A stretch of DNA of 34,918 nt, from the NCBI GenBank assembly GCA_031281765.1, contig JAITEX010000067.1, forward strand, positions 1 through 34,918, given 5' to 3'. The notes below the pieces were generated by a model. That model did not search any database, was not told the DNA's origin, and saw nothing but the letters and a program-made list of their open reading frames with translations. A program made the translations under genes and the position numbers. Source of the DNA: Eubacteriales Family XIII. Incertae Sedis bacterium (lineage in GTDB: Bacteria; Bacillota; Clostridia; Peptostreptococcales; Anaerovoracaceae). Of this stretch, positions 8,392 to 22,703 are shown piece after piece. Each line of letters opens with the position of its first letter. Position 1 is the stretch's first letter.

Positions 8392-8410
8392 ACATATATA
8401 TTTTATATGC
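8392..8410. promoter_or_regulatory. AT-palindrome operator, site A
   Basis: ACATATATA-T-TTTATATGC, 16/18 arm positions matching the palindrome ACATATATA-N-TATATATGT. Starts 21 nt downstream of the -10. Confidence 0.65.
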
Positions 8411-8424
8411 ATTACTGATCGGAC

Positions 8425-8469
8425 AACCGAAGGCAACGCTACCAGTGGCAGTGCTTTCGGTTTTTTATT
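8425..8469 (+). terminator. Intrinsic terminator-like hairpin + T-tract inside the operon leader (or the aminopeptidase terminator)
   Basis: aaCCGAAGGCA-(16 nt)-TGCTTTCGGtt followed by TTTTTTATT. It sits between the consensus promoter at 8343 and the RBS/ATG at 8482. Confidence 0.6.
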
Positions 8470-8481
8470 GAGAAGGGAAAG

Positions 8482-9339
8482 ATGAGTTACAAAATCGCGT
8501 TTGCAAGTTCTGACGGAATACATATCGATCGCCATTTGGGCGAGGCTAAGACATTGACGATCCTGACAATAGGCGAGACAAAGAGCGTCACGACAGAAGT
8601 TTTGACAACGACGCTTGCGCCGGGCTCCGGAGGACGGGATGCTTCGCATCCCCATGCGCACGCGCACGTCAACCTTGCGCCCCTTTTAGATTGTGAATTT
8701 GTCGTGGCGCAGAAGATCGGACGCGAAATGTCCAAAGCGCTTTTGCGCAACAATATCTCCGCTATTGAACAGACGGGATCCATCGAGGAGGCGGCAACGG
8801 GCATCATCAAATTTAAGGAAACGCAGGAAAGGCGCCGGCATATAAGCAGGGATGACCTTGTCGTGGAAAAGGCGCACCCGCATGAATTGAATCAAATATC
8901 CGCCATCTATGTTCGGGCCCGCGTCAGGATGAACGAAAACGGCATCTACCAGTGGGATGAAAGATACCCGTTCGAAGAGATTACCCGGGCGGACATCAGT
9001 AATGGAAAGCTCTACATCCTCAAATTGAACGACAGGATCATCGGGGCGGCGACCCTTAACGATAGCTTGGAGTTCCCGGACGCGACGGAACTTGAGCAGG
9101 TTTATGTCATCCACCGGTTTTGCATCGACCCCGATTTTCAGAAGCGCGGCTTTGCCCGGCGCTTTCTCTTCTCCCTCTTTGAAATCGCACAAAGGGAGGG
9201 TATACATGAGATACACTTGGCCGTCGCGGAGCAGAACTTCATTGCGATAAGCTCATACCGGAAAGCCGGGTTTCGAAACCTTGAGCGCATGGATACAGGC
9301 GGGTTCGGCTATTTTCTGCATATGGCACGGAAGATATAG
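8482..9339 (+). CDS. Fusion protein: NifX/NifB-C-terminal-like (FeMo-cofactor-binding family) domain + GNAT N-acetyltransferase
   Basis: N-terminal ~115 aa (YKIAFASSDGIHIDRHLGEAKTLTI...VVAQKIGREMSKALLRNNISAIE) resembles the dinitrogenase FeMo-co biosynthesis (NifX/NafY/NifB-C) fold. The C-terminal ~160 aa has GNAT motif A (HRFCIDPDFQKRGFARRFL). One continuous ORF with RBS AGAAGGGAAAG. Confidence 0.8.
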   Translation: MSYKIAFASSDGIHIDRHLGEAKTLTILTIGETKSVTTEVLTTTLAPGSGGRDASHPHAHAHVNLAPLLDCEFVVAQKIGREMSKALLRNNISAIEQTGSIEEAATGIIKFKETQERRRHISRDDLVVEKAHPHELNQISAIYVRARVRMNENGIYQWDERYPFEEITRADISNGKLYILKLNDRIIGAATLNDSLEFPDATELEQVYVIHRFCIDPDFQKRGFARRFLFSLFEIAQREGIHEIHLAVAEQNFIAISSYRKAGFRNLERMDTGGFGYFLHMARKI

Positions 9340-9348
9340 GAGGGCTAC

Positions 9349-10047
9349 ATGGGAGAGAAATATTTTCGGTGGGATTATGTTCTGGATTATTTTCCGAAGC
9401 TGTTTGAAAAGCTTCCGGTCACCTTGTCCATCGTACTGATGGCGACTCTGTTCGGCAGCATTATCGCCGTATTCGTCGCCTTTATACGGCTTGAACGCAT
9501 ACCCGTCCTGAATCAGCTTTGCGTCGTATTTGTCTCCTTTATGCGCAGTACACCCATTATCGTGCAGATGTTTCTGCTTTTCTTCGGCTCTGTGATGATC
9601 TTCAACACTCTGTTCGGCATCAATATCATCACCTATAACAAAATCTGGTTTGTCTACGCAGCCTATGCGCTGAATCTGAGCGGGTTCATGGCCGAAATAT
9701 TCCGCGGCGCCATCCTCGGCGTCCCGAAAAAACAGATGGACGCAGCTATCTCTGTCGGCCATAACAGGCGTCAAGCGTATCTGCATATCATCATTCCGCA
9801 GGCGGCCGTCATCGCGTTGCCCACACTCGGTTATACGATTGTCGCGTTGCTGCAGGACTCAACGCTGGCTTTCACCTTCGGCATCATCGATGTCATCGGG
9901 GCAATCAACGGAGTGTCCGCCTCTACGGGCCACAAGCTCGAAGGCTACTTCGACGCCGCCTTTATGTTCGCTATACTCGCGATCCTCGTTGAGAAACTGT
10001 TCGGATTCTTGGAGAAAAAAACAACCCACCAGTCGAGAATCACATGA
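9349..10047 (+). CDS. Polar amino-acid ABC transporter permease (His/Glu/Gln/Arg/cystine-type)
   Basis: 232 aa, multi-TM, with an EAA-like loop (MAEIFRGAILGVPKKQMDAAISVG). RBS AGGAGGG 9 nt after the preceding stop. Confidence 0.9.
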   Translation: MGEKYFRWDYVLDYFPKLFEKLPVTLSIVLMATLFGSIIAVFVAFIRLERIPVLNQLCVVFVSFMRSTPIIVQMFLLFFGSVMIFNTLFGINIITYNKIWFVYAAYALNLSGFMAEIFRGAILGVPKKQMDAAISVGHNRRQAYLHIIIPQAAVIALPTLGYTIVALLQDSTLAFTFGIIDVIGAINGVSASTGHKLEGYFDAAFMFAILAILVEKLFGFLEKKTTHQSRIT

Positions 10048-10110
10048 CCGCAACCCGGAGTGTGTCTCAAATATATGAAGTTGCGTTTTATTGAAAGAAA
10101 GGAAAGTATC

Positions 10111-10944
10111 ATGAAAACGAAAATAACGAAAATTCTCATTGGCCTGCTGACGCTGAGTCTGTTGTTTGCTGTCGGCTGTTCAAAGTCGAACGACAAGGAC
10201 AGCGGCGAGGCAACCGACGGAGAAAAGACGAAGCTGATCGTCAGTTCGCAGCCGGGCGAGTACCCCCCGCTTATCTACGTGAATGAAAACGGGGAAAATG
10301 ACGGCATAGACTTCCGCATAATCAAGGCTTTGCAGGAGGAATTGCCACAGTACGAATTCGAAGTCGTTGCGCAGGATATGGCGACGACGCTGACCGCGCT
10401 CGATTCAGGAACAGTGGATGTGGGGCTCTGCATGTTCGAGTACAATGAACAGCGCGCCGAGAAATACGTCTACTCCGATGTCGGCTATATGGAATACGGT
10501 CAGTACATCGTCGTGCCGAAGGGCAATCCCCTCGGTATCAAGTCGCTCGACGATCTGGGCGGCAAACGCGTCAGCACCTACCCGTCATCCAATACCGCGT
10601 TTATTCTCGAGGATTATAACGCAAATCACCCGGACAACCAGATAGAGATCGTCTATGTGGCCGCAACGGACGCAATCCGCAAGGGCCTGCAAAGCGGAGA
10701 TACGGACGCGACGCTTTCGACCAAATGGGGCGTTGATCTGGAAGTTGCGCAGTTTGGCGACTATGAGGAGATTGCGGGCGAATCCATCTGGCCAGGCCAG
10801 GCCTATGTCCTCTTCCCGCGCACAAACGAAAACAAGCAAGTACAAGCGGACGTGAACGCCGCGCTCAAACGGCTTGTCGATTCCGGAGAAGCGCAGCGCA
10901 TCTACGACAACCTGCTTGAGGAATGGAAGGCGACCTTGAAATAG
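10111..10944 (+). CDS. Amino-acid ABC transporter substrate-binding lipoprotein (PBP type 3 family)
   Basis: Signal peptide with lipobox LLFAVGC. ATG at 10111 (MKTKITKIL) with RBS GAAAGGAAAG preferred over 10060. Periplasmic-binding-protein-like sequence. Confidence 0.85.
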   Translation: MKTKITKILIGLLTLSLLFAVGCSKSNDKDSGEATDGEKTKLIVSSQPGEYPPLIYVNENGENDGIDFRIIKALQEELPQYEFEVVAQDMATTLTALDSGTVDVGLCMFEYNEQRAEKYVYSDVGYMEYGQYIVVPKGNPLGIKSLDDLGGKRVSTYPSSNTAFILEDYNANHPDNQIEIVYVAATDAIRKGLQSGDTDATLSTKWGVDLEVAQFGDYEEIAGESIWPGQAYVLFPRTNENKQVQADVNAALKRLVDSGEAQRIYDNLLEEWKATLK

Positions 10945-10968
10945 GCGGAGCCGGAAAGCGAAGGGACT

Positions 10969-11682
10969 ATGTCAACCGTATTTGATTTTGATTTTTTTAT
11001 AGAATGCCTTAAGTCGGGCGCGGCGCGGATTCCGGTAAATCTTTACGTGGCCGCGGCGTCGGTATTCTTCGGAATGATATTCGGACTCATTATCGCGCTC
11101 ATACGGGTATTCCGGGTGCCGGTGCTGTCACCGATTTTCCGCTGGCTGGTCACCATACTAAAGGGCGTTCCTGTCATTCTTATGTTGCTCGTCTTCTATG
11201 TTCTCGCAGCGGATTACTTCAATTTAATTATGGAGTATTTCGGAATCGACTACACCTTTCGTCAGTTGAACAAGGCGATTATCGCTATAATCGCCTTGTC
11301 CGTCCTTTCATCCATAGGGCTTTCCGAGTCCTTCCGCGGCGCGCTCGCATCGGTGAAGAAGGGACAGTATGACGCGGCCTATTCCGTCTGGCTTACGAAG
11401 CGGCAGGCCCTCGTTTACGTCATTATACCGCAGGCCTTCCCTATCGCCGTACCGACGCTCTGCAATTATATTATCGGGATGATCAAGGCCGGCGCGCTCG
11501 CCGCTATGATTTCGGTTGTAGACATCATGAACGGCGCGCTCATCCCTGCCAACGCGAACTATCGATACCTCGAAGGGTACACGGCAGCCGCGTTGATTTA
11601 TTGGGTTGTTTGCGCGACGCTCGAAAAGGTATTGAATATCGCGGAAAAACGTTTCGCGAGCAAAGTAAGGGAGGTTGCTTAA
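10969..11682 (+). CDS. Polar amino-acid ABC transporter permease (second subunit)
   Basis: 237 aa, multi-TM, with an EAA-like loop (LSESFRGALASVKKGQYDAAYSV). Confidence 0.9.
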   Translation: MSTVFDFDFFIECLKSGAARIPVNLYVAAASVFFGMIFGLIIALIRVFRVPVLSPIFRWLVTILKGVPVILMLLVFYVLAADYFNLIMEYFGIDYTFRQLNKAIIAIIALSVLSSIGLSESFRGALASVKKGQYDAAYSVWLTKRQALVYVIIPQAFPIAVPTLCNYIIGMIKAGALAAMISVVDIMNGALIPANANYRYLEGYTAAALIYWVVCATLEKVLNIAEKRFASKVREVA

Positions 11683-12440
11683 TGATAGAGGTAAAGGGGC
11701 TGAAAAAGGCCTTTGGGCAAAACCAGGTACTCAAAGGGGTGGGCTTCCACGTCAATGAAGGGGATGTTATGACGCTGCTCGGCGTGAGCGGTTCGGGGAA
11801 AACGACGCTCATTCGTTGCCTGAATTATTTGGAGAGCCCCGACGAAGGGGTGATCCGCATCGATGACCGGACGGTGGACGCGCAGAAAATCACCAAGAAG
11901 GAAATCATCGAACTGCGGAAAAAGACCGCTATGGTTTTCCAGACCTACGACTTGTTCCTGAACCTGAACGCCCTGCAAAATGTTACGGAAGGGCTTATCC
12001 GGGGCGGCAAAATCCCGAAGCCGGACGCGGAGGATATTGCGCGTGATTTGCTTGAAAAAGTGGGGCTGTCCGCAAAATTGGAAAGCAAGCCCTATCAGCT
12101 TTCGGGCGGCGAACAGCAGCGTGTCGGGATAGCGCGCGCGCTCGCGCTCTGCCCTAAGGTCATCCTGTTTGACGAGCCGACTTCGGCGCTGGACCCGGAG
12201 GTGATCGGCGAGATATTGGATATTATCAAGGCGGTGGCGCGGAGCGGCGTTACCATGATTATCGTGACGCACGAGATGGAATTCGCGTTTAGCGTTTCCA
12301 ATAAGGTAGTCTTTATCGATCAGGGGGAAATCGTGGAGGAAGGGTCGCCGCGCGAGGTATTTCTGGAATCCAGTCAGGAACGCACGAAATCCTTCTTAGC
12401 CCGGTCGAATTTCCGGTTCCAACCGGAATATTATTTGTAA
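11682..12440 (+). CDS. Amino-acid ABC transporter ATP-binding protein
   Basis: Walker A GVSGSGKTT, signature LSGGEQQRVGIARAL, Walker B ILFDEPTSALD. The ATG at 11682 overlaps the permease stop (TAATG). The ORF-track start at 11601 is rejected. Confidence 0.92.
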   Translation: MIEVKGLKKAFGQNQVLKGVGFHVNEGDVMTLLGVSGSGKTTLIRCLNYLESPDEGVIRIDDRTVDAQKITKKEIIELRKKTAMVFQTYDLFLNLNALQNVTEGLIRGGKIPKPDAEDIARDLLEKVGLSAKLESKPYQLSGGEQQRVGIARALALCPKVILFDEPTSALDPEVIGEILDIIKAVARSGVTMIIVTHEMEFAFSVSNKVVFIDQGEIVEEGSPREVFLESSQERTKSFLARSNFRFQPEYYL

Positions 12441-12452
12441 AGGAGTAGCAAC

Positions 12453-13949
12453 ATGGGTACAATCAACATCGATGCCGGCACGGTCCCTATCCGGGAAACG
12501 CGGTTAGGCTCCATAACGGGGTATTATGGCGACCTGGAGGATCTGTCGACCAAGTCCTCCTGCGGGAATTTGAAGAACAGGGAACGCTGCTTCAGCCAAT
12601 GCAGCCTCTGCCTGAATATGTGTTCCATCGGGGAGTTCACCTCGCTGCGCGATGTGGCGGTCATCAACCACGCGCCCGCCGGGTGCAATGCGGGCTCCGC
12701 AGCCACCAAGGTGTTTGCCAAACAGATAGCGGAACGCATCGGCAAGGAGTATAATTCCGTGCTGGTCGGAACTGACCTCAATGAGAGTGACACCGTATTC
12801 GGCGCCACAGAATCGCTCCCGGACATCGTCCGACAGGTATATGAGAATTATCGTCCGAGCGCTATAGTAATCGCCTCCTCCTGCGTAAGCGGCGTCATAG
12901 GCGAGGACATCGAAAGCGTCACGAGCGAATTGGACAGACAATACGACATACCCATCTTCCCGATACAGTGTGAAGGCTTCCGCTCAAAGATTTGGCAGTC
13001 GGGCGCGGACATCGCCGACCACGCCTTTGTCAAATACATTGTCAAACCGCCGCAGGAGAAACGCAATGTAATCAATTTCAAGAACTTCTTTGAAAGCGAG
13101 CGTCAGCAGATCACGGAGATTTTTGCGGAGCTGGGTGTGACGCCCCAATTCCTCTATCTCAATTCCACGATTGAGGAGGTCGAACATCTTTCGGAATCCC
13201 TTGCGACGGTCAGCATCTGCGGCACGCTTGGCACCTATCTCGGCAACGCCCTCGAAGAACTTTACGGCGTACCTTATATCCGCAGCCTCAACCCGAACGG
13301 CATCACGGGATTCGAAAGCTGGCTTCGCGAGATAGGCAAAAAGATAGGGAAAAGCGCGGAGGTTGAGAACTATCTCACGCGTGAGAAGGCCAAGTATATC
13401 GATAAAATCGAGGAAGTGAAGGACGAACTGAAGGGGCTGACCGCCGTCATCGGCATGGGCCCCGGCTATGCTTTCGATGTGGGACGCGTTTTGCAGGAAT
13501 TGGGGCTTGAAATCATCTGGACGACTGCCTGGCACCTTGACTATCGTTACGACAACGGGGAAATGCCGACGTCCTTGCGCTATATGACGGAACACTCCGC
13601 AAATAATTTCGGCGTAAGCGTAGCGGATCAGCAGAATTTCGAGATAATGCATACGCTGAAGACGTTGAAGCCGGATGTCTATTTCTCGCGCCATCCGGGA
13701 ACCACGGTATGGGCGGTCAAACAAGGCATTGCATCCGTATTCGTCGCGGATGAGTATACGATATTCGGGTATCGCGGCACCTTGAATTTTGCCAATATGA
13801 TACTTGACGCGGTGCGCAACCGCAGTTTTGAACAGAACCTTGCCGCGCGGACGAAGCTGCCGTACACGGACTGGTGGTACGAGCAGAACAATCAGGCGAT
13901 GCTTTTGAATGAGGGCGAAACCAGACTGCGCGAGGCGGCGGCCCACTAG
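12453..13949 (+). CDS. Nitrogenase component-1 alpha-like subunit (NifD/NifE-like), paralog 1
   Basis: NHAPAGC, ASSCVSGVIGEDIESV and IQCEGFRSK parallel NifD HGPVGC, SECPIGLIGDDIESV and VRCEGFRG. VSICGTLGTY parallels the cofactor-Cys segment LVHCYRSMNY. RBS AAGGAG. Confidence 0.85.
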   Translation: MGTINIDAGTVPIRETRLGSITGYYGDLEDLSTKSSCGNLKNRERCFSQCSLCLNMCSIGEFTSLRDVAVINHAPAGCNAGSAATKVFAKQIAERIGKEYNSVLVGTDLNESDTVFGATESLPDIVRQVYENYRPSAIVIASSCVSGVIGEDIESVTSELDRQYDIPIFPIQCEGFRSKIWQSGADIADHAFVKYIVKPPQEKRNVINFKNFFESERQQITEIFAELGVTPQFLYLNSTIEEVEHLSESLATVSICGTLGTYLGNALEELYGVPYIRSLNPNGITGFESWLREIGKKIGKSAEVENYLTREKAKYIDKIEEVKDELKGLTAVIGMGPGYAFDVGRVLQELGLEIIWTTAWHLDYRYDNGEMPTSLRYMTEHSANNFGVSVADQQNFEIMHTLKTLKPDVYFSRHPGTTVWAVKQGIASVFVADEYTIFGYRGTLNFANMILDAVRNRSFEQNLAARTKLPYTDWWYEQNNQAMLLNEGETRLREAAAH

Positions 13950-13969
13950 CGGGGGAGGAAGAGGCAAAT

Positions 13970-15277
13970 ATGGCACAGATATTGGATCAACCGAGATATA
14001 AATGCGCTCTTGCGGCAATGCAGACCGTACACGCCATTCCGCGGGCCATACCCATCCTGCACGCGGGTCCGGGGTGCGGCACGAAACTGAACGACAATAC
14101 CGGCATCTCAGGGTATTATTCACCGAATATATTTCCGAGCACGAATATCGGCGAAAAGGAGGTGGTCTTCGGTGGCGAGGGCAAACTGCGAACCACCATC
14201 GAAAACGCGCTGAAAATAATTGACGCCGACCTCTTTGTTGTGCTGACCGGCTGCACGGCCGAGATCATAGGGGATGACGCCGAAGAAATCGTACACGAAT
14301 TTGCGGACGCGGGGAAGCGCGTCATCTACGTGAACACCCCCGGGTTCAAGGGGTCGAATTATCAAGGGCACGATTGGGTACTGACCGCCCTTTTCGAGCA
14401 GTATCTACCGCGCGAACGCGTCCCCGTAAACGCGAAGCAGGTGAACATATTCCCGGGGCCTCCGGTGCAGGATCCCTTTTGGCACGGCAACCTGAAGGAG
14501 CTGGAATCCCTGTTCCGCGAAATCGGCCTTGAGCCGAATATCATCTTCGGCTATGGCAACGGCGTTTCGGCCGTCGACCGCATACCGGCAGGCGCTTTCA
14601 ATATCCTCGTCTCGCCGTGGGTCGGCCTGGACAGCGTCAAGGTCCTCGAAAAGAAATACGGGACGCCGTACCTGCATTATCCCGTGCTGCCGATCGGCGC
14701 GACGGAGACGAGCAAGTTCCTCCGCGCCGTAGGGAAATTCACGAAGGTTGACGAGCTTCATGTCGAGCGCGTCATCGCCGAACATGAGAAGGAATATTAT
14801 TACTTTATCGAACGCTATTCGGATACCTTTCTCGAGCTGAGGATACTCTCCAAACGCTTCGTCGTCATATCCGACGCGCAGTACGCGATTGCCGCGACAA
14901 AGTTCCTCGTCAACGACCTCGGCTGGAACCCGGGCGGTACGCAGTTCGTTACGGACAACACGCCGGAGGAATACCGCGAAAGCGTCCGCTCCGAATTTGA
15001 AAAGCTCAATTACGGCATCAAGGCGTCGATGGAATTTTCGACAAACGGGTTTGAGATACAAAAGAAGATCAGGGAATCCGGATTTACCGCGCCGCCGATG
15101 ATCTTCGGCAGCAGTTGGGATAAGAGCTTCGCAAAGGAGATATATGCCCCCTTCCTGAACATCTCCTATCCTACGTATGACCGGCTCATCATCAACAGCG
15201 GCGTGGTCGGCTACGCCGGCGGCCTTAAGTTCCTGGAAGACATTTATACCACGGCGGTGCAGTCGCTTATTCTGTAA
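13970..15277 (+). CDS. Nitrogenase component-1 beta-like subunit (NifK/NifN-like), paralog 1
   Basis: YKCALAAM, HAGPGCG and LTGCTAEIIGDD parallel the three NifK P-cluster Cys motifs (ACQPLGA, HGSQGC, TTCMAEVIGDD). RBS GGGGGAGGAAGAGG. Confidence 0.85.
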   Translation: MAQILDQPRYKCALAAMQTVHAIPRAIPILHAGPGCGTKLNDNTGISGYYSPNIFPSTNIGEKEVVFGGEGKLRTTIENALKIIDADLFVVLTGCTAEIIGDDAEEIVHEFADAGKRVIYVNTPGFKGSNYQGHDWVLTALFEQYLPRERVPVNAKQVNIFPGPPVQDPFWHGNLKELESLFREIGLEPNIIFGYGNGVSAVDRIPAGAFNILVSPWVGLDSVKVLEKKYGTPYLHYPVLPIGATETSKFLRAVGKFTKVDELHVERVIAEHEKEYYYFIERYSDTFLELRILSKRFVVISDAQYAIAATKFLVNDLGWNPGGTQFVTDNTPEEYRESVRSEFEKLNYGIKASMEFSTNGFEIQKKIRESGFTAPPMIFGSSWDKSFAKEIYAPFLNISYPTYDRLIINSGVVGYAGGLKFLEDIYTTAVQSLIL

Positions 15278-15313
15278 AGTTTATCGGGCGTACGATAAGC
15301 GGCGCCGATCGGT

Positions 15314-15343: not shown

Positions 15344-15394
15344 GCGTATAAGAACGCGGTATAAATAACAGGCATGCCCGCGCGGGAGTACGCT

Positions 15395-16000: not shown

Positions 16001-16030
16001 TTGACAAGGATAGTTGGCATGTGGTATAAT
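16001..16030 (+). promoter_or_regulatory. Sigma-A promoter of the NifH-like gene (extended -10)
   Basis: TTGACA (16001-16006), 18-nt spacer, TGgTATAAT (16022-16030). Confidence 0.75.
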
Positions 16031-16031: not shown

Positions 16032-16058
16032 ACATATATCATATATATGATATATATG
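16032..16058. promoter_or_regulatory. AT-palindrome operator, site B (two overlapping copies)
   Basis: ACATATATC-A-TATATATGA (16032-16050) overlaps CATATATAT-G-ATATATATG (16040-16058). Directly abuts the -10. Confidence 0.65.
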
Positions 16059-16085
16059 CAATATTCCATAAAGAAAGGGACAACT

Positions 16086-16976
16086 ATGGCGAAAAACGGC
16101 AAAGCGATCAAGCAGATTGCGATTTACGGCAAAGGGGGTATCGGCAAATCGACCACCACCTCGAACCTGAGCGCGGCATTGGCCGATCTCGGCTATAAGG
16201 TCATGCAATTCGGGTGTGACCCGAAAGCGGACTCCACGAATACCTTACGGGACGGTTCATATATTCCTACCGTGTTGGAACTATTGCGGGACCGGGGCAG
16301 CGTAAACGCCCACGACGCGATTTTTGTGGGATACAACGGCATATACTGCGTGGAGGCCGGCGGCCCGGCGCCCGGCGTGGGGTGCGCGGGGCGCGGTATC
16401 ATCACCGCGGTGCAATTGCTGAAAGAACAGGATATTTTCGAAGAACTCGATTTGGACTATGTGATCTACGACGTCCTCGGCGACGTTGTCTGCGGCGGCT
16501 TCGCGGTGCCCATCCGGGAGGGTATTGCGCAGCACGTCTTTACGGTTTCGTCCTCGGATTTTATGGCCATATACGCCGCCAACAATCTGTTCAAGGGCAT
16601 CCAGAAATATTCGAACTCGGGAGGCGCCCTCCTCGGCGGCATTATCGCGAACTCCGTTTCACCCGAATCCAATTATCAGCGATCCATTATCGACGATTTC
16701 GCCGCACGGACAAGCACGCAGATCATGCAATATATCCCCCGTTCCGTTACGGTGACCCAGAGCGAACTTTCGGGAAAGACGACCATAGAGGCCGCGCCGG
16801 ATTCCGCTCAGGCCAAGGTGTACCGCGAACTCGCGCGCCGCATCGACGAGCATGTCGACTCCAAGACGCCAACGCCTTTGGAACCTTCGCAATTGCGCGA
16901 CTGGGCCGCAGAATGGTCCGACCAGATACTCGCCATCGAAACCGGCGAGGTCCGCACGGAAGCGGCCAACATCTAA
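16086..16976 (+). CDS. NifH-like ATPase / Fe-protein (nitrogenase iron protein family)
   Basis: [18 protein letters not shown] (Walker A), GCDPKADST (switch I), and [4Fe-4S] Cys in [12 protein letters not shown] and [17 protein letters not shown] at 16086 with RBS AAAGGGA. Confidence 0.92.
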
Positions 16977-17021: not shown

Positions 17022-18389
17022 CTACAGGCTCAATTTTCTGCGGAAGGTCCGGGCGATAAGGCAGAGGCTGATAAGGCAGGTTGCCGTCTCCGCAACCGGA
17101 AAGCAGTACCAGACATAGCGCGGTTCAAACACCCGCCACAACAGTAAGGCGGCCGGGATGATGAATACGAGCTGTCTGAGCGAGGATATGATAAACGACA
17201 CAAACCCCACTCCGATAGATTGATAAAAGTTGGCTGTCATAATGGAAACCCCGGACATCGCGAAGGATATGCTGATGACGCGGAGCGCAAACGCCCCTAT
17301 CTCGTTGAGGTTCGCGGACGCGTGGAAAAGGCTCATGATCTCCTGCGGGAACATCTGCGTAAGCGCCGTCCCCACGAGCATAGCCGTTACGGAAGATACC
17401 ATCGCGAGAATAAATGTCTTGCGGACGCGCGGGATATTACGCGCCCCGTAATTGAAGCTGATAATAGGCAGGGCTCCCTGCCCTATTCCAAAGACGGGCG
17501 TAATGATTATCGTCTGCAGGCGATAATATATGCCGAGAACCGCCACGGCTGTCACCGAATACGCCATGAGAATAGCGTTCATCAAGAGTGACGATAGCGA
17601 CGAGATCCCATACATGAAGATGGAAGGCGCCCCGACTCTATAGATGTCCTTAATAATGGGGAAGTTGAAGCGCAGCGTACGCAGGGCAAAGCTCACATCA
17701 CTTTTCGCGCGCGCGAGCAGGATGAGGCCGAGCGCGGCCGCCGAGCACTGCCCTATCACCGTAGCCGTAGCCGAGCCGGCGATCCCGAGCGCGGGGAAGC
17801 CGAACTTCCCGAAAATAAGGATGGGATTGAGAACGATGTTGATGACCGTCCCGACGATGTTAAATATAAGCGGCTGATAGACGAGCCCCACCGATTGCAA
17901 AATCCTCTCGATATTGAACTGGAAGAAGGCGCCGAGGGAGCCGACCGTCGTGATAGTGCAAAACACCGACGCAAGGGACAGCAGCTCGGGGTCGTCGGTG
18001 AGCAGATGCAGAAACGGCATGGTGAGGAGGATGCCGAAGGCCGCGAAAACCAACCAGCTTGCTATGACAAGCAGGTACGCCTGATTGGCGACCGCCGAAA
18101 CCTTTTCCCTGTTCTTCTCCCCGTAGGAGCGGGCCATCAGGGAACCGACGCCAACGCCGGTCCCCGCGGCGATCGCCATGAGAAACATCGGGATGGGGAA
18201 AACGAGCGTCGTCGCAGCCAACGCTTTCTCGGAGATGCGCGCCACGAAGATGCTGTCCACGATATGGTAGACGGATTGGGCCGTCATGGTAACGATGGGC
18301 GGTATCGACATCGCCGCGAGCAAGCGCCCGACGGGTCTGGTTCCTAACTTCTCACTTCCCGGCTCAACGCCGCCCATCTTACCGGCCAT
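17022..18389 (-). CDS. MATE-family efflux transporter
   Basis: 455 aa, ~12 predicted TM segments, with a typical MATE N-terminus (RLLAAMSIPPIVTMTAQSVYHIVDSIFVARI). The start codon lies 2 nt after the NifK-like-2 stop. Confidence 0.88.
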   Translation of the reverse strand: MAGKMGGVEPGSEKLGTRPVGRLLAAMSIPPIVTMTAQSVYHIVDSIFVARISEKALAATTLVFPIPMFLMAIAAGTGVGVGSLMARSYGEKNREKVSAVANQAYLLVIASWLVFAAFGILLTMPFLHLLTDDPELLSLASVFCTITTVGSLGAFFQFNIERILQSVGLVYQPLIFNIVGTVINIVLNPILIFGKFGFPALGIAGSATATVIGQCSAAALGLILLARAKSDVSFALRTLRFNFPIIKDIYRVGAPSIFMYGISSLSSLLMNAILMAYSVTAVAVLGIYYRLQTIIITPVFGIGQGALPIISFNYGARNIPRVRKTFILAMVSSVTAMLVGTALTQMFPQEIMSLFHASANLNEIGAFALRVISISFAMSGVSIMTANFYQSIGVGFVSFIISSLRQLVFIIPAALLLWRVFEPRYVWYCFPVAETATCLISLCLIARTFRRKLSL

Positions 18390-18391
18390 GA

Positions 18392-19678
18392 TTACAGATT
18401 GTTGAACAGGTCCTCAACGAGGGTTATCGCGCCGCGGTATCCGCTATAGGTGCGGTTGAGAATCAGCTGGTCGGTGATGGGATACGCCGCAACGAATATC
18501 TGCGCGTCACGATTGAAGGCGATTTCCCGTTCCAATGAACTGCCGACAAACAGCGAGACGTCGTTATACTCGTCGAGGGCCCGGCCCACATCGTAATTAT
18601 CGGTGGCAAAGACGACATCCGGCCCTTTGACATATTCGAGATCCTGTATCCGGTCCCGTATAGCCGCCTTATCCGCTTCGCGTGACACCGGTTCGGTCAC
18701 CACGGTGACCACCGGGGTGAACCCGAGGTCGTTCGCGAGCGCGTGCGTCATGCCTATCGCCACATTGGCGTCCCCGATGACGGCGAATTTCTTCCACGAC
18801 AGAGCGCCGATGGCCGTTTCGTAATAATTATAGACGTAAGACTCCTCCTCGTAGATGACATCCTCGACGAGTTTGCCGTCTATAGCAAGCGCGTCCGCAA
18901 CCTGCCGGACGAGGCGCGTCGTATCGGTCGCGCCGACCGGCAGCCCCGGGAAACGGAGGCTCGGCACGCCGAACCTCTTTTCAAATTTCCTTGCCTCGCC
19001 TTGCAGGAGCCACGGATTGACTATGACGTTCAGCGCCGCCGCGCCGGCATTTTTTATATGTTCAATGCCCTGGCCGTGCGAGAAGAAGGTATTCACCTCC
19101 AGACCGAGCTTGGAAAAGATGCGCACTAATTCCTCAAACGTGCCCGCCCAATAGGGGTCATGATAGGGGAAGATGCCGAGCAGGTTGATGAGATTGGCCT
19201 GCCTGGGCCGCCCCGGCTCCACGAGCTGGCTCAGGAAGGTGGATATGGTCGTTTCGTATCCGAGGTTGCTGTCCCCCGCAAACCCCGGCGTGGGGATGTT
19301 ATAGACCGGGAAGCCTTCCGCGCGGAACCCCTTCGCCACCGTCTCCGTATCATCGCCGATAATGCCCGATGTGCAGCCGTTGAGGATGAAGTAGGCGTCC
19401 GCGTCGATAATGTCGATACTGCCGCGAATCGTATCGGTGAGTTTTTCAATGCCGCCAAACACCACCTCGCGTTCGAGCATAAGCGAGCAGGGAAGGGACA
19501 CGCTCGAGAGGAAATGCGGCGACTTGAGTCCCGCCTGCCCCGCTTCCCCCGCGCTGGTCTGGAGTCCGCATCCGGGTCCCGAATGAAAGATCGGGCAGAA
19601 TTTGTTGACGGCTGACAGGGTGCTGTTGATGCCGCCGAGTACGCAGCTGCCCCGGGGGTTCTCGGTAACGATGGACAT
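18392..19678 (-). CDS. Nitrogenase component-1 beta-like subunit (NifK/NifN-like), paralog 2
   Basis: GSCVLGG, HSGPGCG and LNGCTSGIIGDD give all three NifK-type P-cluster Cys motifs. The start lies 1 nt after the NifD-like-2 stop. Confidence 0.85.
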   Translation of the reverse strand: MSIVTENPRGSCVLGGINSTLSAVNKFCPIFHSGPGCGLQTSAGEAGQAGLKSPHFLSSVSLPCSLMLEREVVFGGIEKLTDTIRGSIDIIDADAYFILNGCTSGIIGDDTETVAKGFRAEGFPVYNIPTPGFAGDSNLGYETTISTFLSQLVEPGRPRQANLINLLGIFPYHDPYWAGTFEELVRIFSKLGLEVNTFFSHGQGIEHIKNAGAAALNVIVNPWLLQGEARKFEKRFGVPSLRFPGLPVGATDTTRLVRQVADALAIDGKLVEDVIYEEESYVYNYYETAIGALSWKKFAVIGDANVAIGMTHALANDLGFTPVVTVVTEPVSREADKAAIRDRIQDLEYVKGPDVVFATDNYDVGRALDEYNDVSLFVGSSLEREIAFNRDAQIFVAAYPITDQLILNRTYSGYRGAITLVEDLFNNL

Positions 19679-19679
19679 A

Positions 19680-21131
19680 TTAGATTACCTCCTTTATAAA
19701 CTTGAACGGGTCTTCGTCATACCAGCTCTCGCGATACGGCAGGCGCGCATACTTCGACAGCTTCTTGTTGAATCCCGGGTTTTCGATTTGGGCCGCGATC
19801 TTATTCCCCAGCCACACGATGCCGTCATAGCCCATAGTCGGCCGTTTCGGATCCAGAATATGCGTGGTCGGAATGCCGAACCTCGACGACCAGGAGGGTA
19901 CGCCGATAAAGACGTCCGGTTTCAGTTTGTTCACTATATTTACCTGTTCAAAGGGCAGCATATTGGCGACGTCGATGAGGTAATCCCCGTGAATATCGTT
20001 CAGAAACGCTATGTCGTCCTGAGCGTCAAGGTCGTAGACGGGCGTTTCAATGCCGAGCAGTTTCATGCCGAAATCATCGATAAGGGTGGCCGCCGCGAAC
20101 GAACGGCCCGTGCCGCCGCAGATAAACACCGACTTGCCCTGTAGCTTCAGCTTGATCTTGTCCAATTCCGGCTGAATGCGCGCGTGTTCGGTGGCGATGA
20201 TCTCTTCGACTTCATCCCCCTTGCCGGTGATCTCGGCAATGGCGCGATACCACTTATCCGTATTGCGTATTCCCACCGGCATCACCGTATGGGCGTAAGG
20301 AATGCCGAAGTCATGTTCGATGTCCTTCATAAACTCATCGGCGAACACCTTGCAGATGGACGTGGACGCTTCGGCGTTCGGTATATTCAGAACTTTGTCA
20401 TAGTCGCTGAAGAAGGGCAAAAAGTTGCTCTTCAATCCTATCCTCCGCAGCAATTTTTCTATTTCGAGCTGATCCGCGAAGCTCACCGTCATCGGCGCGA
20501 AGAGATTGATAAGGCCCTTCTCCTTCTTCGGGACCGCGCCTTTTAACACGAATTTCGATATGGCGATAAAAGCGGCGTCGTACCCGGAAGCGCAGATTTT
20601 CGACCGAAAACCGTCGCAGTGCACGGGGACGATGAGCGCCTCCGTATCCGGCTGCGCCTCGCGGACGATGGCGTCAACATCATCGCCTATTATACCGGAA
20701 GCGCAGGAGGTGAACACGAAAATCAGCTTTGGCTTGTACCGTTCGGACGCAAGCCGGATGGATTCGCGCAGCTTCCCCTCGCCTCCCATAATGACGTCGC
20801 TCTGATCGAGGTTTGTTATGAGGATCTTCGGTGACGTGATTTTCTCGGCGCCGCGATGGATCTGCGCGACACGGTACATATCCGCCCCCATGGTGATACA
20901 CCCGACACAGCCCTGCGGCGCGTGCGCGATGAGCACGGCGTCATTGACCGAAAGTAACGCGGATATGCTGTTCAGCTCCTGGCATTGATAGCTCTGGCTG
21001 AACGTGCGATCAGCGTTCTTAATACATTTCTTCTTGAAATCCTGCTCGATTTGCAGACTGCTGCCCGCAAGATCGAGATACGTATCGGTGTATTCGCGTT
21101 GTTCCCGAATACCGGAATAGGTTCTTGGCAT
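19680..21131 (-). CDS. Nitrogenase component-1 alpha-like subunit (NifD/NifE-like), paralog 2
   Basis: HAPQGC, FTSCASGIIGDDVDAIV, VHCDGFRSK, STSICKVFADEF (cofactor-Cys position) and GIPTTHILD (candidate His). The ATG at 21131 (MPRTYSG) follows a GGGAGGAG RBS, so the ORF-track start at 21149 is rejected. Confidence 0.85.
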   Translation of the reverse strand: MPRTYSGIREQREYTDTYLDLAGSSLQIEQDFKKKCIKNADRTFSQSYQCQELNSISALLSVNDAVLIAHAPQGCVGCITMGADMYRVAQIHRGAEKITSPKILITNLDQSDVIMGGEGKLRESIRLASERYKPKLIFVFTSCASGIIGDDVDAIVREAQPDTEALIVPVHCDGFRSKICASGYDAAFIAISKFVLKGAVPKKEKGLINLFAPMTVSFADQLEIEKLLRRIGLKSNFLPFFSDYDKVLNIPNAEASTSICKVFADEFMKDIEHDFGIPYAHTVMPVGIRNTDKWYRAIAEITGKGDEVEEIIATEHARIQPELDKIKLKLQGKSVFICGGTGRSFAAATLIDDFGMKLLGIETPVYDLDAQDDIAFLNDIHGDYLIDVANMLPFEQVNIVNKLKPDVFIGVPSWSSRFGIPTTHILDPKRPTMGYDGIVWLGNKIAAQIENPGFNKKLSKYARLPYRESWYDEDPFKFIKEVI

Positions 21132-21175
21132 CTTTCTCCTCCCATACATCCGTCTCCGTCAATATAGCCTAATTA

Positions 21176-21194
21176 ACATATATGAATATCTGAG
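21176..21194. promoter_or_regulatory. AT-palindrome operator, site E (degenerate, one strong half-site)
   Basis: Plus strand ACATATATG-AATATCTGA. It lies at about +5 to +24 relative to the minus-strand promoter of the NifDK-like-2 operon. Confidence 0.45.
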
Positions 21195-21198: not shown

Positions 21199-21227
21199 AT
21201 TATATGGTGAATTGAACTATATGTCAA
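21199..21227 (-). promoter_or_regulatory. Sigma-A consensus promoter of the NifDK-like-2/MATE operon
   Basis: Minus strand reads TTGACA (21227-21222), 17-nt spacer, TATAAT (21204-21199). Confidence 0.75.
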
Positions 21228-21277
21228 TATAATATGAACTATAGTATAAAATTTATTTGCGTATATAAATTTTTATA

Positions 21278-21306
21278 TTGACAAGAGTAAAGGAGAGGCA
21301 TATAAT
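21278..21306 (+). promoter_or_regulatory. Sigma-A consensus promoter of the NifB-like/NifX-like operon
   Basis: TTGACA (21278-21283), 17-nt spacer, TATAAT (21301-21306). Divergent from the promoter at 21199-21227. Confidence 0.75.
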
Positions 21307-21318
21307 AATACTTATTAA

Positions 21319-21337
21319 ACATATATATTATATATGT
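21319..21337. promoter_or_regulatory. AT-palindrome operator, site C (perfect 9-1-9 palindrome)
   Basis: ACATATATA-T-TATATATGT. Starts 13 nt after the -10. Confidence 0.7.
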
Positions 21338-21398
21338 ATTTGCTGACCTGCCAGAAATTTGGCTCTCAGCTTGTAGATACCGCGCCGAAACGGATGCG

Positions 21399-22301
21399 AT
21401 GCGGAGAAGGACGGATTTCGTGAAAACATACAGAAACGGAAGTTTGATAAACCAACACCCCTGCTTCAACCATGGGGCGAAAGCAGGCAGGATTCACCTG
21501 CCGGTTTGCCCTTCTTGCAATATTTTCTGCAATTTTTGCGTAAGAAAAACGGATGATGAGGAATGGGATGTCGTGCGGCCCGGGCTTTCGTCGGGATTGA
21601 TCGCACCGGAGGAAGCGGGAAGATATGTCGCCGACGCATTGCACTTCTGCCCGGACATTTCGGTGGTCGGTATCGCGGGGCCGGGAGATACGCTTGCAAC
21701 CGATCATGCGCTCCGGGCCTTCGCCTCGGTTCACGAGCGGTTTCCGCATCTGCTGAAATGCATGAGCACGAATGGCCTGCGCCTGTCGGAACGTTTGGGC
21801 GAAGTGATTCGCGCCGGAGTGGATACGCTGACCGTAACGGTGAATGCCGTTGATCCCGGGATCCTCAAGGATATATGCTCAGGCATTATCTATCAAAACA
21901 AGCTGCTCTCGGGCGCCGAAGGCGCCGAAATCCTGATCGCGAATCAGCTCGGCGGCATTAAGGCGGCAGCCTTGGCCGGCATTACCATAAAGGTGAATAT
22001 GGTGCTGATACCGGAGATCAATGGCGACCACGTTAAACAGGTCGCGCATGAGGTCGGAAACGCGGGAGCTTCTATCTTCAACATCATCCCTCTTATCCCG
22101 CAGAACAAGCTCAGCGAATGTGCGGCGCCGAACTGCGGCCAGATTGCCGATGCGCGCGCGGACGCGGAAACGTTTCTGCCCGTATTCAAACATTGCCAAC
22201 ATTGCCGTGCCGACGCGGTAGGGCTTCTGGGTGGCCGGGATTTCGGCCGGGAGGTCTTCGCGAATAAGGAAGCGGTAGCCGACACATTCTCCCACGGATG
22301 A
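21399..22301 (+). CDS. NifB-like radical SAM protein (stand-alone SAM domain, no fused NifX domain)
   Basis: HPCF...GRIHLPVCPSCNIFCNFCVRK (HPC motif + CX3CX2C), VVGIAGPGDTLA, KCMSTNGL and the C-terminal HCQHCRADAVGLLG closely parallel NifB. The start is uncertain: ATG at 21399, or GTG at 21420 behind GGAGAAGGA. Confidence 0.85.
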   Translation: MRRRTDFVKTYRNGSLINQHPCFNHGAKAGRIHLPVCPSCNIFCNFCVRKTDDEEWDVVRPGLSSGLIAPEEAGRYVADALHFCPDISVVGIAGPGDTLATDHALRAFASVHERFPHLLKCMSTNGLRLSERLGEVIRAGVDTLTVTVNAVDPGILKDICSGIIYQNKLLSGAEGAEILIANQLGGIKAAALAGITIKVNMVLIPEINGDHVKQVAHEVGNAGASIFNIIPLIPQNKLSECAAPNCGQIADARADAETFLPVFKHCQHCRADAVGLLGGRDFGREVFANKEAVADTFSHG

Positions 22302-22327
22302 GCTGCCTGAAACGGAAGGTGACATTT

Positions 22328-22678
22328 ATGGCATATAGAGCTGCCTTTGCAACGAGCGACGGATTGACCGTTTACAAACACTTCGGACAAGCGAACGAAT
22401 ATCTCGTCGCCGACATCCTGGAAGACCATTATGAAATCGTAGCTCGCAGAAACGTAGTCCCTCCCTGCAACGCCCGCGGGCACTCGGAAGCGGCGTTCGA
22501 CGCGGTACTTGACGCCTTATCCGACTGTGAAGCCATTTTCGTCGGCAAGGTCGGAGTGGGAGCTGCGGAATACATCGCAAGCCGGGGTATAAACGTATTT
22601 GAAACCCCGGGTGTGATCGATGAGATTTTTTTAAAACAAAAATCGCAGGCGCCTCTTGATAAAAAACGGGATATATGA
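22328..22678 (+). CDS. NifX/NifB-C-terminal-like FeMo-cofactor-binding family protein
   Basis: MAYRAAFATSDGLTVYKHFGQANEYLV...IFVGKVGVGAAEYIASRGINVFE. ATG at 22328 with RBS GGAAGGTGA preferred over 22298. Confidence 0.8.
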   Translation: MAYRAAFATSDGLTVYKHFGQANEYLVADILEDHYEIVARRNVVPPCNARGHSEAAFDAVLDALSDCEAIFVGKVGVGAAEYIASRGINVFETPGVIDEIFLKQKSQAPLDKKRDI

Positions 22679-22684
22679 TATTAT
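22656..22684 (+). promoter_or_regulatory. Promoter of the yezD-like gene (extended -10)
   Basis: TTGATA (22656-22661), 17-nt spacer, TGaTATTAT (22676-22684). Embedded in the 3' end of the NifX-like gene. Confidence 0.6.
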
Positions 22685-22703
22685 ACATATATGTTATATA
22701 TGT
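22685..22703. promoter_or_regulatory. AT-palindrome operator, site D
   Basis: ACATATATG-T-TATATATGT (17/18 arm positions). Directly abuts the -10. Confidence 0.65.

What the first reader, a model, noticed from the sequence alone, without database searches (positions are those of the whole stretch)
8392..22703. One 19-bp AT palindrome (ACATATATA-N-TATATATGT) sits just downstream of the -10 at all five promoters of the cluster
Seen in sequence. Site A 8392-8410: ACATATATATTTTATATGC. Site B 16032-16058: ACATATATCATATATATGA overlapping CATATATATGATATATATG. Site C 21319-21337: ACATATATATTATATATGT, a perfect 9-1-9 palindrome. Site D 22685-22703: ACATATATGTTATATATGT. Site E 21176-21194 is degenerate, with one strong half-site. 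Each lies 0-21 nt downstream of a near-consensus sigma-A promoter, and I did not see the motif elsewhere in the window by eye. The TetR gene promoter lacks it. Inference: a single dimeric repressor blocks five very strong promoters, giving an all-or-none regulon. The embedded TetR (15395-15964) is the obvious candidate, but a global regulator (for example sulfur- or redox-responsive) is equally possible.
Basis: partly seen in the sequence, partly recalled or inferred. Interest (0 to 1): 0.75.

Follow-up and report, generated by a model that had tools for sequence, protein, structure and literature searches.

The report
Sulfur-repressor operators on a nitrogenase-like cluster
Five strong promoters of a nitrogenase-like sulfur-salvage gene cluster each carry the same 19-bp AT-rich palindrome, which most likely binds a conserved cysteine-responsive Rrf2 (CymR-like) repressor encoded outside this contig, not the TetR gene inside the cluster.

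Summary
ACATATAT-N3-ATATATGT occurs at four places (A, B, C, D), plus a half-site at E. Each lies 0-21 nt downstream of a 12/12 or 10/12 sigma-70-type promoter. I found 4 site clusters against 0.017 expected when each intergenic region is shuffled on its own.

The genes are Mar-like (methylthio-alkane-reductase-like) nitrogenase homologues: two D/K pairs, H, B and X, with an ABC importer, a MATE pump and YezD.

The embedded TetR is nearly an orphan. Its nearest relative among 1.84 billion representatives is 37% identical. It is absent from all 80 orthologous loci, yet several of those loci keep the same promoter-plus-operator layout.

An unbiased palindrome count in those loci recovers CATAT-N7-ATATG (14 observed, 0.84 expected). 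It sits before cysK, metY-like, ABC and nitrogenase-like genes, and before Rrf2-family regulator genes.

A matrix built only from the window's sites hits 18 of 44 upstream regions of cysK-linked, cysteine-free Rrf2 genes from unrelated metagenomes (0.32 expected).

Best reading: these are operators of a CymR-like Rrf2 sulfur repressor encoded elsewhere. No binding was tested, and no Rrf2 gene lies on this contig. I rate it a new member of a known kind, of moderate interest.

The parts
8343..8371 (+). Promoter A (TTGACA-17-TATAAT, 12/12). Its -35 hexamer contains the stop codon of the upstream M24 peptidase gene.
   Evidence: sequence
8383..8410 (.). Operator A. The main 19-bp site is 8392-8410 (21.3 bits). 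A weaker overlapping site lies 9 bp upstream (8383-8401, 14.1 bits).
8425..8468 (+). G+C-rich hairpin followed by U7, in the leader between operator A and the first gene. It is either the terminator of the upstream gene or an attenuator. Its role is unresolved.
   Evidence: z-score -2.96; no Rfam match
8482..15277 (+). Operon A: NifX-like/GNAT fusion, ABC permease, solute-binding protein, permease, ATPase, MarD-like D1 and MarK-like K1.
   Evidence: Pfam; PDB (D1 298 bits to 9fmg MarD)
15374..15964 (+). Embedded TetR-family gene with its own promoter (about 15312-15343) and no operator. It is probably not the protein that binds the motif.
16001..16030 (+). Promoter B (TTGACA-18-TATAAT with TG extension, 12/12).
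16032..16059 (.). Operator B: two overlapping 19-bp sites offset by 9 bp (16032-16050 at 21.3 bits, 16041-16059 at 19.9 bits), made of three CATATATG-like boxes.
16086..16976 (+). NifH/MarH-like Fe protein gene.
17022..21149 (-). Operon E: MarD-like D2, MarK-like K2 and a MATE efflux protein.
21167..21194 (.). Operator E: one strong half-site (AACATATATG, 21175-21184) with degenerate partners on either side. It is conserved in L083.
21199..21227 (-). Promoter E (TTGACA-17-TATAAT, 12/12, minus strand).
21278..21306 (+). Promoter C (TTGACA-17-TATAAT, 12/12).
21319..21337 (.). Operator C: the perfect palindrome ACATATATA-T-TATATATGT (24.6 bits).
21399..22678 (+). Operon C: NifB-like radical SAM protein and NifX-like protein.
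22656..22684 (+). Promoter D (TTGATA-17-TATTAT with TG extension, 10/12). It lies inside the 3' end of the NifX-like gene.
22685..22703 (.). Operator D: ACATATATGTTATATATGT (24.0 bits). It abuts the -10 hexamer.
22726..22905 (+). DUF2292/YezD small-protein gene.

Best explanation
The five sites are operators of a dimeric Rrf2-family repressor that acts like CymR, the cysteine-metabolism repressor of Bacillales. The repressor is encoded outside this 35-kb contig.

When cysteine is sufficient, the repressor sits on 19-bp dyads (ACATA-N9-TATGT, C-N15-G). These dyads cover roughly +1 to +30 of five consensus sigma-A promoters. There it blocks RNA polymerase binding or escape. By analogy with CymR, it may act in complex with the cysteine synthase CysK, with O-acetylserine as the releasing signal.

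When sulfur is limiting, the repressor leaves the DNA. The whole Mar-like nitrogenase-like sulfur-salvage set is then transcribed at once: two D/K pairs, H, B, X, an ABC importer, a MATE pump and YezD.

Shown here: the sites, their placement, their non-randomness, their conservation in orthologous clusters, and their association with cysK-linked Rrf2 genes. Inferred: which protein binds, the direction of regulation, and the signal.
For: 1. Sites and placement are confirmed.

2. Both D subunits are closest to R. rubrum MarD (9fmg/9d9u: 298 and 222 bits, against about 110-125 bits for NifD). The cargo is therefore plausibly sulfur salvage.

3. An unbiased palindrome count in intergenic DNA of 80 orthologous loci recovers CATAT-N7-ATATG: 14 observed against 0.84 expected, in 13 loci.

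4. Those instances lie before sulfur and Rrf2 genes:
- Rrf2 genes (L001, L004, L017, L018, L023, L024);
- cysK (L004, L065) and a metY-like gene (L004);
- ABC solute-binding genes (L002);
- nitrogenase-like operons (L001, L032, L055).

5. L001 has TTGACA-17-TATTAT followed by ACATATATGAATAGTATGA before the whole H-D1-K1-B-X-D2-K2-ABC operon. The Rrf2 gene at the end of that cluster carries its own site.

6. A matrix built only from the window's five sites hits 18 of 44 upstream regions of cysK-linked Rrf2 genes at 14 bits or more. Shuffles give 0.32 (maximum 2 in 200). Control regions give 0 of 35.

7. These Rrf2 genes neighbour cysK in about 30 of 46 loci and a metY-like gene in about 15 of 46. 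The one representative inspected (L004 type) has no cysteine. It shares the C-terminal G[YF]M[YF][YF]I tail with two of the solved Rrf2 proteins shown (4cic and 3lwf).

8. The geometry equals the canonical Rrf2 operator, a 19-bp 5-N9-5 palindrome (TGTAA-N9-TTACA for HypR and SifR; PMC9218516).

9. Tandem sites offset by 9 bp occur both in the window and in the Rrf2 loci.

10. The Bacillus CymR consensus, recalled from memory, hits the window only at site E. It is enriched in the Rrf2 upstream regions: 22 of 44 against 3.4 at 4 or fewer mismatches.
Against: - No Rrf2 gene lies on the contig, and the rest of the genome is not available. The regulator's presence in this organism is assumed.
- The candidate regulators from related loci fall below NCBIfam's CymR and IscR equivalog cut-offs (89 and 138 bits against 195). 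They are a different subfamily whose effector is unknown.
- Assigning the motif to the Rrf2 protein rests on co-localisation, not binding.
- Many orthologous clusters carry other sulfur motifs instead (Met-box-like TATAG-N7-CTATA, ATAAG-N5-CTTAT). Control of this cluster type is lineage-specific.
- In the closest relative, L083, only half-sites are clear.
- Promoters and transcription start sites are predicted, not mapped.
- Some of the 44 Rrf2 regions are near-duplicates, so the effective sample is smaller.
Confidence: 0.68

Rival explanations
1. The embedded TetR (15374-15964) is the repressor. A TetR dimer binds the palindrome at all five promoters and releases it on binding a substrate or product of the pathway.
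For: It is the only regulator gene inside the cluster, and TetR proteins bind palindromes of about this size as dimers. Nothing here tests binding, so it cannot be excluded. A lineage-specific TetR could have been recruited to pre-existing sites.
Against: - The word-indexed search returns only the protein itself.
- The exhaustive search gives 37% identity as the best match and only 4 hits at E <= 1e-30.
- No homologue occurs in any of the 80 orthologous loci.
- L081 and L001 keep the operator layout without it.
- The same motif is found at cysK/Rrf2 loci in unrelated organisms.
- Its own promoter lacks the site.
Confidence: 0.1
2. A different trans-acting global regulator recognises the motif, neither Rrf2 nor the TetR. 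It could be a sulfur-, redox- or iron-responsive factor. It would co-regulate cysK, the Rrf2 genes and the nitrogenase-like genes.
For: The motif-to-protein assignment is by association only. The Rrf2 genes could be targets rather than the binder. LysR-type sulfur regulators and their motifs also occur in related loci.
Against: - Placement downstream of the -10 of consensus promoters fits a repressor, not a LysR-type activator.
- The 5-N9-5, 19-bp geometry matches Rrf2 operators.
- Sites sit in front of two different Rrf2 subfamilies, as expected for autoregulation.
- No other regulator gene recurs next to the motif.
Confidence: 0.17
3. The palindrome acts in the RNA or as a DNA structural element. 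It would form a 5'-terminal AU hairpin that stabilises the mRNAs, or provide an easily melted stretch that boosts promoter strength, with no dedicated binding protein.
For: All sites lie in or at the start of the transcribed region. The site C leader does form an 8-bp AU stem in the predicted fold.
Against: - At B and D the site abuts the -10 hexamer, so the left arm would not be transcribed.
- Predicted leaders of B, D and E fold no better than shuffles (z -0.69, +0.49, +0.22).
- In other loci the motif lies upstream of or within the promoter: L096/L099 before the -35, L007 within the spacer and -10.
- The invariant positions are the outer C and G, not the AT core.
Confidence: 0.04

Closest known systems
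CymR regulon of Bacillus subtilis and Staphylococcus aureus (Rrf2 family, CymR-CysK complex, O-acetylserine signal)
   Same: - Both involve a cysteine-free Rrf2 repressor genetically tied to cysK.
- Both use AT-rich operators at promoters of sulfur-assimilation and uptake genes.
- The same C-N15-G dyad span appears in the Bacillus consensus as I recall it.
- A C-terminal G[YF]M[YF][YF]I tail is present in the L004-type Rrf2 protein and in two of the solved Rrf2 proteins shown (4cic, 3lwf).
- Background on CymR comes from PMC3828012 and PMC2940859.
   Different: - The candidate regulators score below the CymR equivalog cut-off.
- The consensus here is a clean palindrome, wCATATAw-N3-wTATATGw, rather than the asymmetric 27-bp Bacillus box.
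- The regulon includes Mar-like nitrogenase homologues.
- Sites often come as tandem copies offset by 9 bp.
- The regulator is not on this contig.
HypR / SifR / SaiR operators (Rrf2 family), TGTAA-N9-TTACA
   Same: Both are 19-bp near-palindromes with 5-bp outer half-sites separated by 9 bp, bound by an Rrf2 dimer at promoters (PMC9218516).
   Different: The half-site sequence differs (ACATA/TATGT against TGTAA/TTACA). The effectors (quinones, HOCl) and the regulons also differ.
SalR (LysR-type) control of marBHDK in Rhodospirillum rubrum
   Same: Both place Mar-type nitrogenase-like genes under transcriptional control by sulfur availability (PMC13474568).
   Different: SalR is required for mar expression in R. 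rubrum, and is of the LysR type. Here the layout indicates repression of constitutively strong promoters by an Rrf2-type protein in a Firmicute.
TetR/tetO-type local repressor
   Same: Both use a palindromic operator overlapping a promoter, with a TetR-family gene inside the cluster.
   Different: Operator and TetR are not co-conserved, the TetR promoter lacks the site, and the TetR is nearly an orphan.

Membership tests
Rrf2-family repressor operator | Dyad-symmetric operator of about 19 bp with outer half-sites spaced 5-N9-5 | tested here: met
   ACATA-N9-TATGT at sites A-D. The geometry matches the description in PMC9218516.
Rrf2-family repressor operator | Operator overlaps the promoter or transcription start (repression by occlusion) | tested here: met
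   Sites start 0-20 nt after the -10 hexamers of predicted promoters. Start sites are not mapped experimentally.
Rrf2-family repressor operator | The same motif occurs upstream of Rrf2 regulator genes (autoregulation) in other genomes | tested here: met
   18 of 44 Rrf2 upstream regions score 14 bits or more with a window-only matrix, against 0.32 in shuffles. Sites also lie before a second Rrf2 subfamily.
Rrf2-family repressor operator | An Rrf2 regulator is encoded in the same genome | not testable with these tools
   The window is the whole contig. It carries no Rrf2 gene. The source record was not retrievable.
Rrf2-family repressor operator | Direct binding of the protein to the sites | not testable with these tools
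   This needs EMSA, footprinting or ChIP.
CymR (Bacillales cysteine repressor) regulon | The regulator reaches the CymR equivalog score | tested here: not met
   The L004-type protein scores 89 bits and the L017-type 138 bits, against a cut-off of 195 (NF047409).
CymR (Bacillales cysteine repressor) regulon | 27-bp CymR box TAAWNCN2ANTWNAN3ATMGGAATTW (recalled from memory, not verified in the held papers) | tested here: inconclusive
   In the window only site E matches, with 3 mismatches (0.03 expected). The box is enriched upstream of the cysK-linked Rrf2 genes (6 of 44 against 0.39, and 22 of 44 against 3.4).
CymR (Bacillales cysteine repressor) regulon | Regulator genetically linked to cysK, with targets in sulfur assimilation | tested here: met
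   cysK is adjacent in about 30 of 46 loci and a metY-like gene in about 15 of 46. Sites lie before cysK, metY-like, ABC and Mar-like genes.
CymR (Bacillales cysteine repressor) regulon | CysK-dependent DNA binding relieved by O-acetylserine | not testable with these tools
   The only lead is the C-terminal G[YF]M[YF][YF]I tail.
TetR-family local repressor with cognate operator | Operator at the TetR gene's own or adjacent divergent promoter | tested here: not met
   The best score in 15278-15373 is 5.5 bits. The gene has a separate TTGCGT-18-TATAAT promoter.
TetR-family local repressor with cognate operator | Regulator and operator are co-conserved across orthologous clusters | tested here: not met
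   No TetR homologue occurs in the 80 loci. The operators are kept in L001, L007, L021 and L055/L081. The TetR's best relative is 37% identical.
Mar (methylthio-alkane reductase) nitrogenase-like system (the regulated genes) | B, H, D and K homologues closest to MarBHDK | tested here: met
   D1 and D2 have their best PDB hits to 9fmg/9d9u MarD. H and B are identified.
Mar (methylthio-alkane reductase) nitrogenase-like system (the regulated genes) | C-S bond reduction of volatile organosulfur compounds | not testable with these tools
   This needs enzymology or growth tests.

The most novel reading that the evidence does not exclude
Clostridia and their relatives may have an undescribed clade of cysteine-free, cysK-linked Rrf2 repressors. 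These proteins would be distinct from Bacillales CymR and from IscR.

Their operator would be built from self-complementary CATATATG boxes phased 9 bp apart. Their regulon would include Mar-like nitrogenase homologues. That would be the first regulatory link between cysteine status and nitrogenase-like sulfur-salvage enzymes in Firmicutes.

In this contig the control may be layered. A lineage-specific TetR and a leader terminator after operator A could add further levels.
Probability: 0.5. Interest if true: 0.55.

Novelty: new member of a known kind. Interest (0 to 1): 0.45.

Why it matters
Nitrogenase-like (NFL/Mar) clusters are widespread in anaerobic Firmicutes, and their physiological roles there are largely untested. 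In the 2026 review I consulted (PMC13474568), the Mar regulator its text searches turned up was SalR of R. rubrum.

A shared operator ties these clusters to cysK, a metY-like gene and a CymR-like regulator. That gives independent evidence that they serve sulfur acquisition. It also predicts the inducing condition, cysteine or sulfur limitation. The position matrix can be used to map the regulon in any genome of this group.

The practical lesson is that a regulator gene sitting inside a cluster is not necessarily the one that owns the cluster's operators.

Tried and rejected
- **TetR as binder.** The word-indexed homologue search returned only the protein itself. The exhaustive search gave 37% identity at best. 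phmmer found no TetR or MarR relative in the 80 orthologous loci. I rejected this as the main explanation.
- **Riboswitch or leader RNA.** No Rfam family matches in the window at gathering score. Only chance-level hits appear around leader A.
- **RNA hairpin role for the palindrome.** The predicted leaders of B, D and E fold no better than shuffles.
- **LysR-type site.** The motif contains T-N11-A, but it lies downstream of the -10 of consensus promoters, so I rejected this. True LysR- or Met-box-like motifs do exist in other orthologous loci.
- **Site E as a full 19-bp site.** It is not one (-8.6 bits). I kept it as a conserved half-site.
- **Literature.** I found no paper giving this motif or linking Rrf2 to nitrogenase-like genes. 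The Bacillus CymR consensus could not be verified in the held papers.
- **Source record.** A look-up of the source contig failed, so no genome-wide scan of the organism was possible.
- **Collection-wide motif scan.** I did not run a scan with the bare motif.


Full report
**1. The observation**

The pattern ACATATATNNNATATATGT with up to 3 mismatches gives 9 overlapping hits, against 0.07 expected from whole-window shuffles. The window is about 55% G+C but its spacers are AT-rich. I therefore repeated the test by shuffling each intergenic region on its own, preserving dinucleotides. That gave 4 site clusters against 0.017 expected, in 0 of 1000 shuffles. All four lie in the spacers of the gene cluster and none in the other AT-rich spacers.

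The promoter scan finds four perfect 12/12 TTGACA-17/18-TATAAT promoters and one 10/12 promoter. Each sits immediately upstream of a site.

Site E is only a half-site. As delimited it scores -8.6 bits, and the alternative register 21167-21185 scores 9.4 bits. Its core, TTAACATATATG, is conserved in the closest relative (L083, 79% identical D2).

The TetR gene has its own TTGCGT-18-TATAAT promoter and no site.

**2. What the cluster is**

Pfam and NCBIfam annotation gives five transcription units.

| Promoter | Genes | Coordinates |
|---|---|---|
| A | NifX-like/GNAT fusion, four ABC importer genes, D1, K1 | 8482-15277 |
| own | TetR | 15374-15964 |
| B | NifH-like | 16086-16976 |
| E (minus strand) | D2, K2, MATE | 21149-17022 |
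| C | NifB-like, NifX-like | 21399-22678 |
| D | DUF2292/YezD | 22726-22905 |

A MarR gene follows, with its own promoter and two ABC exporter genes.

Both D subunits are far closer to Rhodospirillum rubrum MarD (PDB 9fmg/9d9u; 298 and 222 bits) than to NifD (about 110-125 bits). Mar is the methylthio-alkane reductase, a nitrogenase-like enzyme of sulfur salvage. In R. rubrum it is induced by sulfate limitation through the LysR-type regulator SalR (PMC13474568).

**3. Is the TetR the binder?**

The word-indexed search of 5.8 billion proteins returned only the TetR itself. The exhaustive search of 1.84 billion representatives found 37% identity at best, and only 4 hits at E <= 1e-30.

I fetched 80 orthologous loci, using D2 as the anchor with 10-kb flanks. 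phmmer finds no relative of the window's TetR or MarR in any of them.

Several of these loci nevertheless keep the same layout, a consensus promoter followed within 0-27 nt by the palindrome.

- **L055/L081** (a Family XIII genome): both divergent promoters of D1K1-ABC-MATE-H and D2K2 carry the site. No regulator gene lies in the cluster.
- **L001**: TTGACA-17-TATTAT, then 15 nt, then ACATATATGAATAGTATGA, before the whole H-D1-K1-B-X-D2-K2-ABC operon.
- **L007 and L021** (Oscillospiraceae).
- **L002** (Anaerocolumna) and **L044** (Propionispira).

An operator conserved across families cannot depend on a regulator that exists only here.

**4. Who, then?**

I counted all w-Nk-rc(w) palindromes in the intergenic DNA of the 80 loci, with no prior motif. 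CATAT-N7-ATATG came out at 14 observed against 0.84 expected, in 13 loci. Its instances lie in front of these genes:

- Rrf2-family regulator genes of two subfamilies;
- cysK and a metY-like gene;
- ABC solute-binding genes;
- nitrogenase-like operons.

In L001, L002 and L004 a cysteine-free Rrf2 gene sits at the edge of the nitrogenase-like cluster. In L004 it is divergent from cysK, with three or four sites in the spacer.

I then fetched 46 metagenomic loci encoding relatives of this Rrf2 protein, 36-80% identical. About 30 have cysK next door, usually divergent. About 15 have a metY-like gene downstream.

A position matrix was built only from the window's five sites and scored against an AT-rich background.

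| Threshold | Rrf2 upstream regions with a hit | Expected from shuffles |
|---|---|---|
| 14 bits or more | 18 of 44 | 0.32 (maximum 2 in 200 shuffles) |
| 12 bits or more | 22 of 44 | 1.0 |

Control regions from inside the same loci gave 0 of 35. The consensus of the recovered sites is wCATATAw-N3-wTATATGw. That consensus is partly circular, because the matrix selected the sites. The enrichment test is not circular.

Three further points fit an Rrf2 protein.

- **Geometry.** ACATA-N9-TATGT has the same 19-bp, 5-N9-5 form as the canonical Rrf2 operator TGTAA-N9-TTACA of HypR and SifR (PMC9218516).
- **Tandem copies.** Sites offset by exactly 9 bp recur in the window (8383/8392, 16032/16041, 21310/21319, 22676/22685, 21167/21176). 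They also recur in the Rrf2 loci. The 8-mer CATATATG is its own reverse complement, so one box can serve two overlapping dyads.
- **The Bacillus CymR box.** I recalled the consensus from memory (Even et al. 2006) and could not verify it in the held papers. It has the same C-N15-G span. It hits the window only at site E (3 mismatches, 0.03 expected). It is enriched in the Rrf2 upstream regions (6 of 44 against 0.39, and 22 of 44 against 3.4).

**5. What the candidate regulator is and is not**

NCBIfam places both Rrf2 subfamilies in the Rrf2 superfamily. Both fall below the equivalog cut-offs for CymR (89 and 138 bits against 195) and for IscR. I therefore do not file them as CymR proper.

The L004-type protein inspected has no cysteine, so it cannot carry an Fe-S cluster. 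It ends in GFMFFI, a C-terminal tail also seen in two of the solved Rrf2 proteins shown (4cic ...GYMYYI, 3lwf ...GYMFYI) but not in E. coli IscR.

By context they work like CymR, the cysteine repressor that acts with CysK and O-acetylserine in Bacillus (background in PMC3828012 and PMC2940859). Whether CysK and O-acetylserine are involved here is inference.

**6. Rivals**

- **TetR as binder.** See section 3. It cannot be excluded without binding data. I put it at about 0.1.
- **Another unknown global factor.** This is possible because the assignment is by association. I put it at about 0.17.
- **RNA hairpin or DNA melting element.** This is unlikely. Sites B and D abut the -10 hexamer. The leaders of B, D and E fold no better than shuffles. 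In other loci the motif lies upstream of or within the promoter. The conserved positions are the outer C and G.
- **LysR-type activator site.** I rejected this on position. Genuine LysR- or Met-box-like motifs (TATAG-N7-CTATA, ATAAG-N5-CTTAT, TTATC-N6-GATAA) do precede orthologous clusters and cysK in other Lachnospiraceae. This cluster type is thus repeatedly wired to sulfur amino-acid regulators, with different ones in different lineages.

**7. Verdict**

The general inference, one dimeric repressor over five strong promoters, is supported. The TetR candidate is not. The best-supported mechanism is repression by a CymR-like Rrf2 sulfur regulator encoded elsewhere, with confidence of about 0.68.

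The main gaps are these:
- no Rrf2 gene lies on this contig;
- nothing was tested for binding;
- promoters are predicted only.

On novelty, this is a known kind of system, an Rrf2/CymR-type sulfur regulon. It has a consensus that none of my searches of the held papers turned up. It also brings in new targets, the Mar-like nitrogenase homologues. I rate it of moderate interest.

Noticed in passing
window 6216-6292, 6849-6925, 7588-7664: There are three copies of a roughly 77-nt internally palindromic repeat (CACAGGGGGACGGTTCCCTTGTG ... TGTATACA ... CACAGCGGAACCGTCCCCCTGTG). The first straddles the start of the M24 aminopeptidase ORF (6223-8346). The other two lie inside the ORF and are read in frame, giving repeated MHRGTVPLC-like peptides. 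They look like MITE/REP-type insertions tolerated in a coding gene.
   Followed up: partly
window 8343-8481: The stop codon of the peptidase gene lies inside the -35 hexamer of promoter A. A strong hairpin plus U7 (8425-8468) lies between operator A and the first gene. It is either the peptidase terminator, which promoter A transcripts must read through, or a second attenuation layer of control. No Rfam family matches.
   Followed up: partly
window 15278-15964: The TetR gene embedded in the cluster is nearly an orphan (best relative 37% identical). It has its own promoter with CGTATA direct repeats around the -10. Its target and ligand are unknown. The MATE pump gene in the cluster is one guess.
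   Followed up: partly
window 8383-8410, 16032-16059, 21310-21337, 22676-22703; loci L092, L094, L095, L097, L098, L101, L103, L105, L108, L110, L117: Operators often come as two overlapping 19-bp sites offset by exactly 9 bp. They are built from the self-complementary box CATATATG. This suggests that two dimers bind side by side, or that the protein binds as a higher oligomer.
   Followed up: partly
L019, L034, L047, L048, L054, L059, L068, L072-L074; L018, L020, L022-L024, L057, L058, L060, L065: Orthologous nitrogenase-like clusters and cysK genes in other Lachnospiraceae carry different conserved palindromes. These are TATAG-N7-CTATA (like the streptococcal Met box of LysR-type MetR/MtaR) and ATAAG-N5-CTTAT with TTATC-N6-GATAA. 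The same cluster type is therefore wired to different sulfur regulators in different lineages.
   Followed up: partly
L017 4391-5051, L018 9387-9936, L023, L024 (also L019, L026, L030, L035): A second Rrf2 subfamily lies immediately upstream of the D2 gene in many Lachnospiraceae. It gives the best NCBIfam hit to CymR (138 bits, below the cut-off) and ends in ...DYCI. In L017, L018, L023 and L024 it is preceded by CATATCGGGATAATATG (CATATCGGAATAATATG in L023).
   Followed up: partly
L081 9895-9965: The D2 leader in the Family XIII relative carries a long hairpin after its operator (GGAGCTGTGAAAAAA ... TTTTTTCACAGCTCC). Structured leaders downstream of the operator may be a recurring feature.
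   Followed up: no
window 8482-9339: The first gene of operon A fuses a NifX/Nitro_FeMo-Co domain to a GNAT acetyltransferase domain. This is an unusual combination. Weaker matches to the same query occur in some related loci.
   Followed up: no
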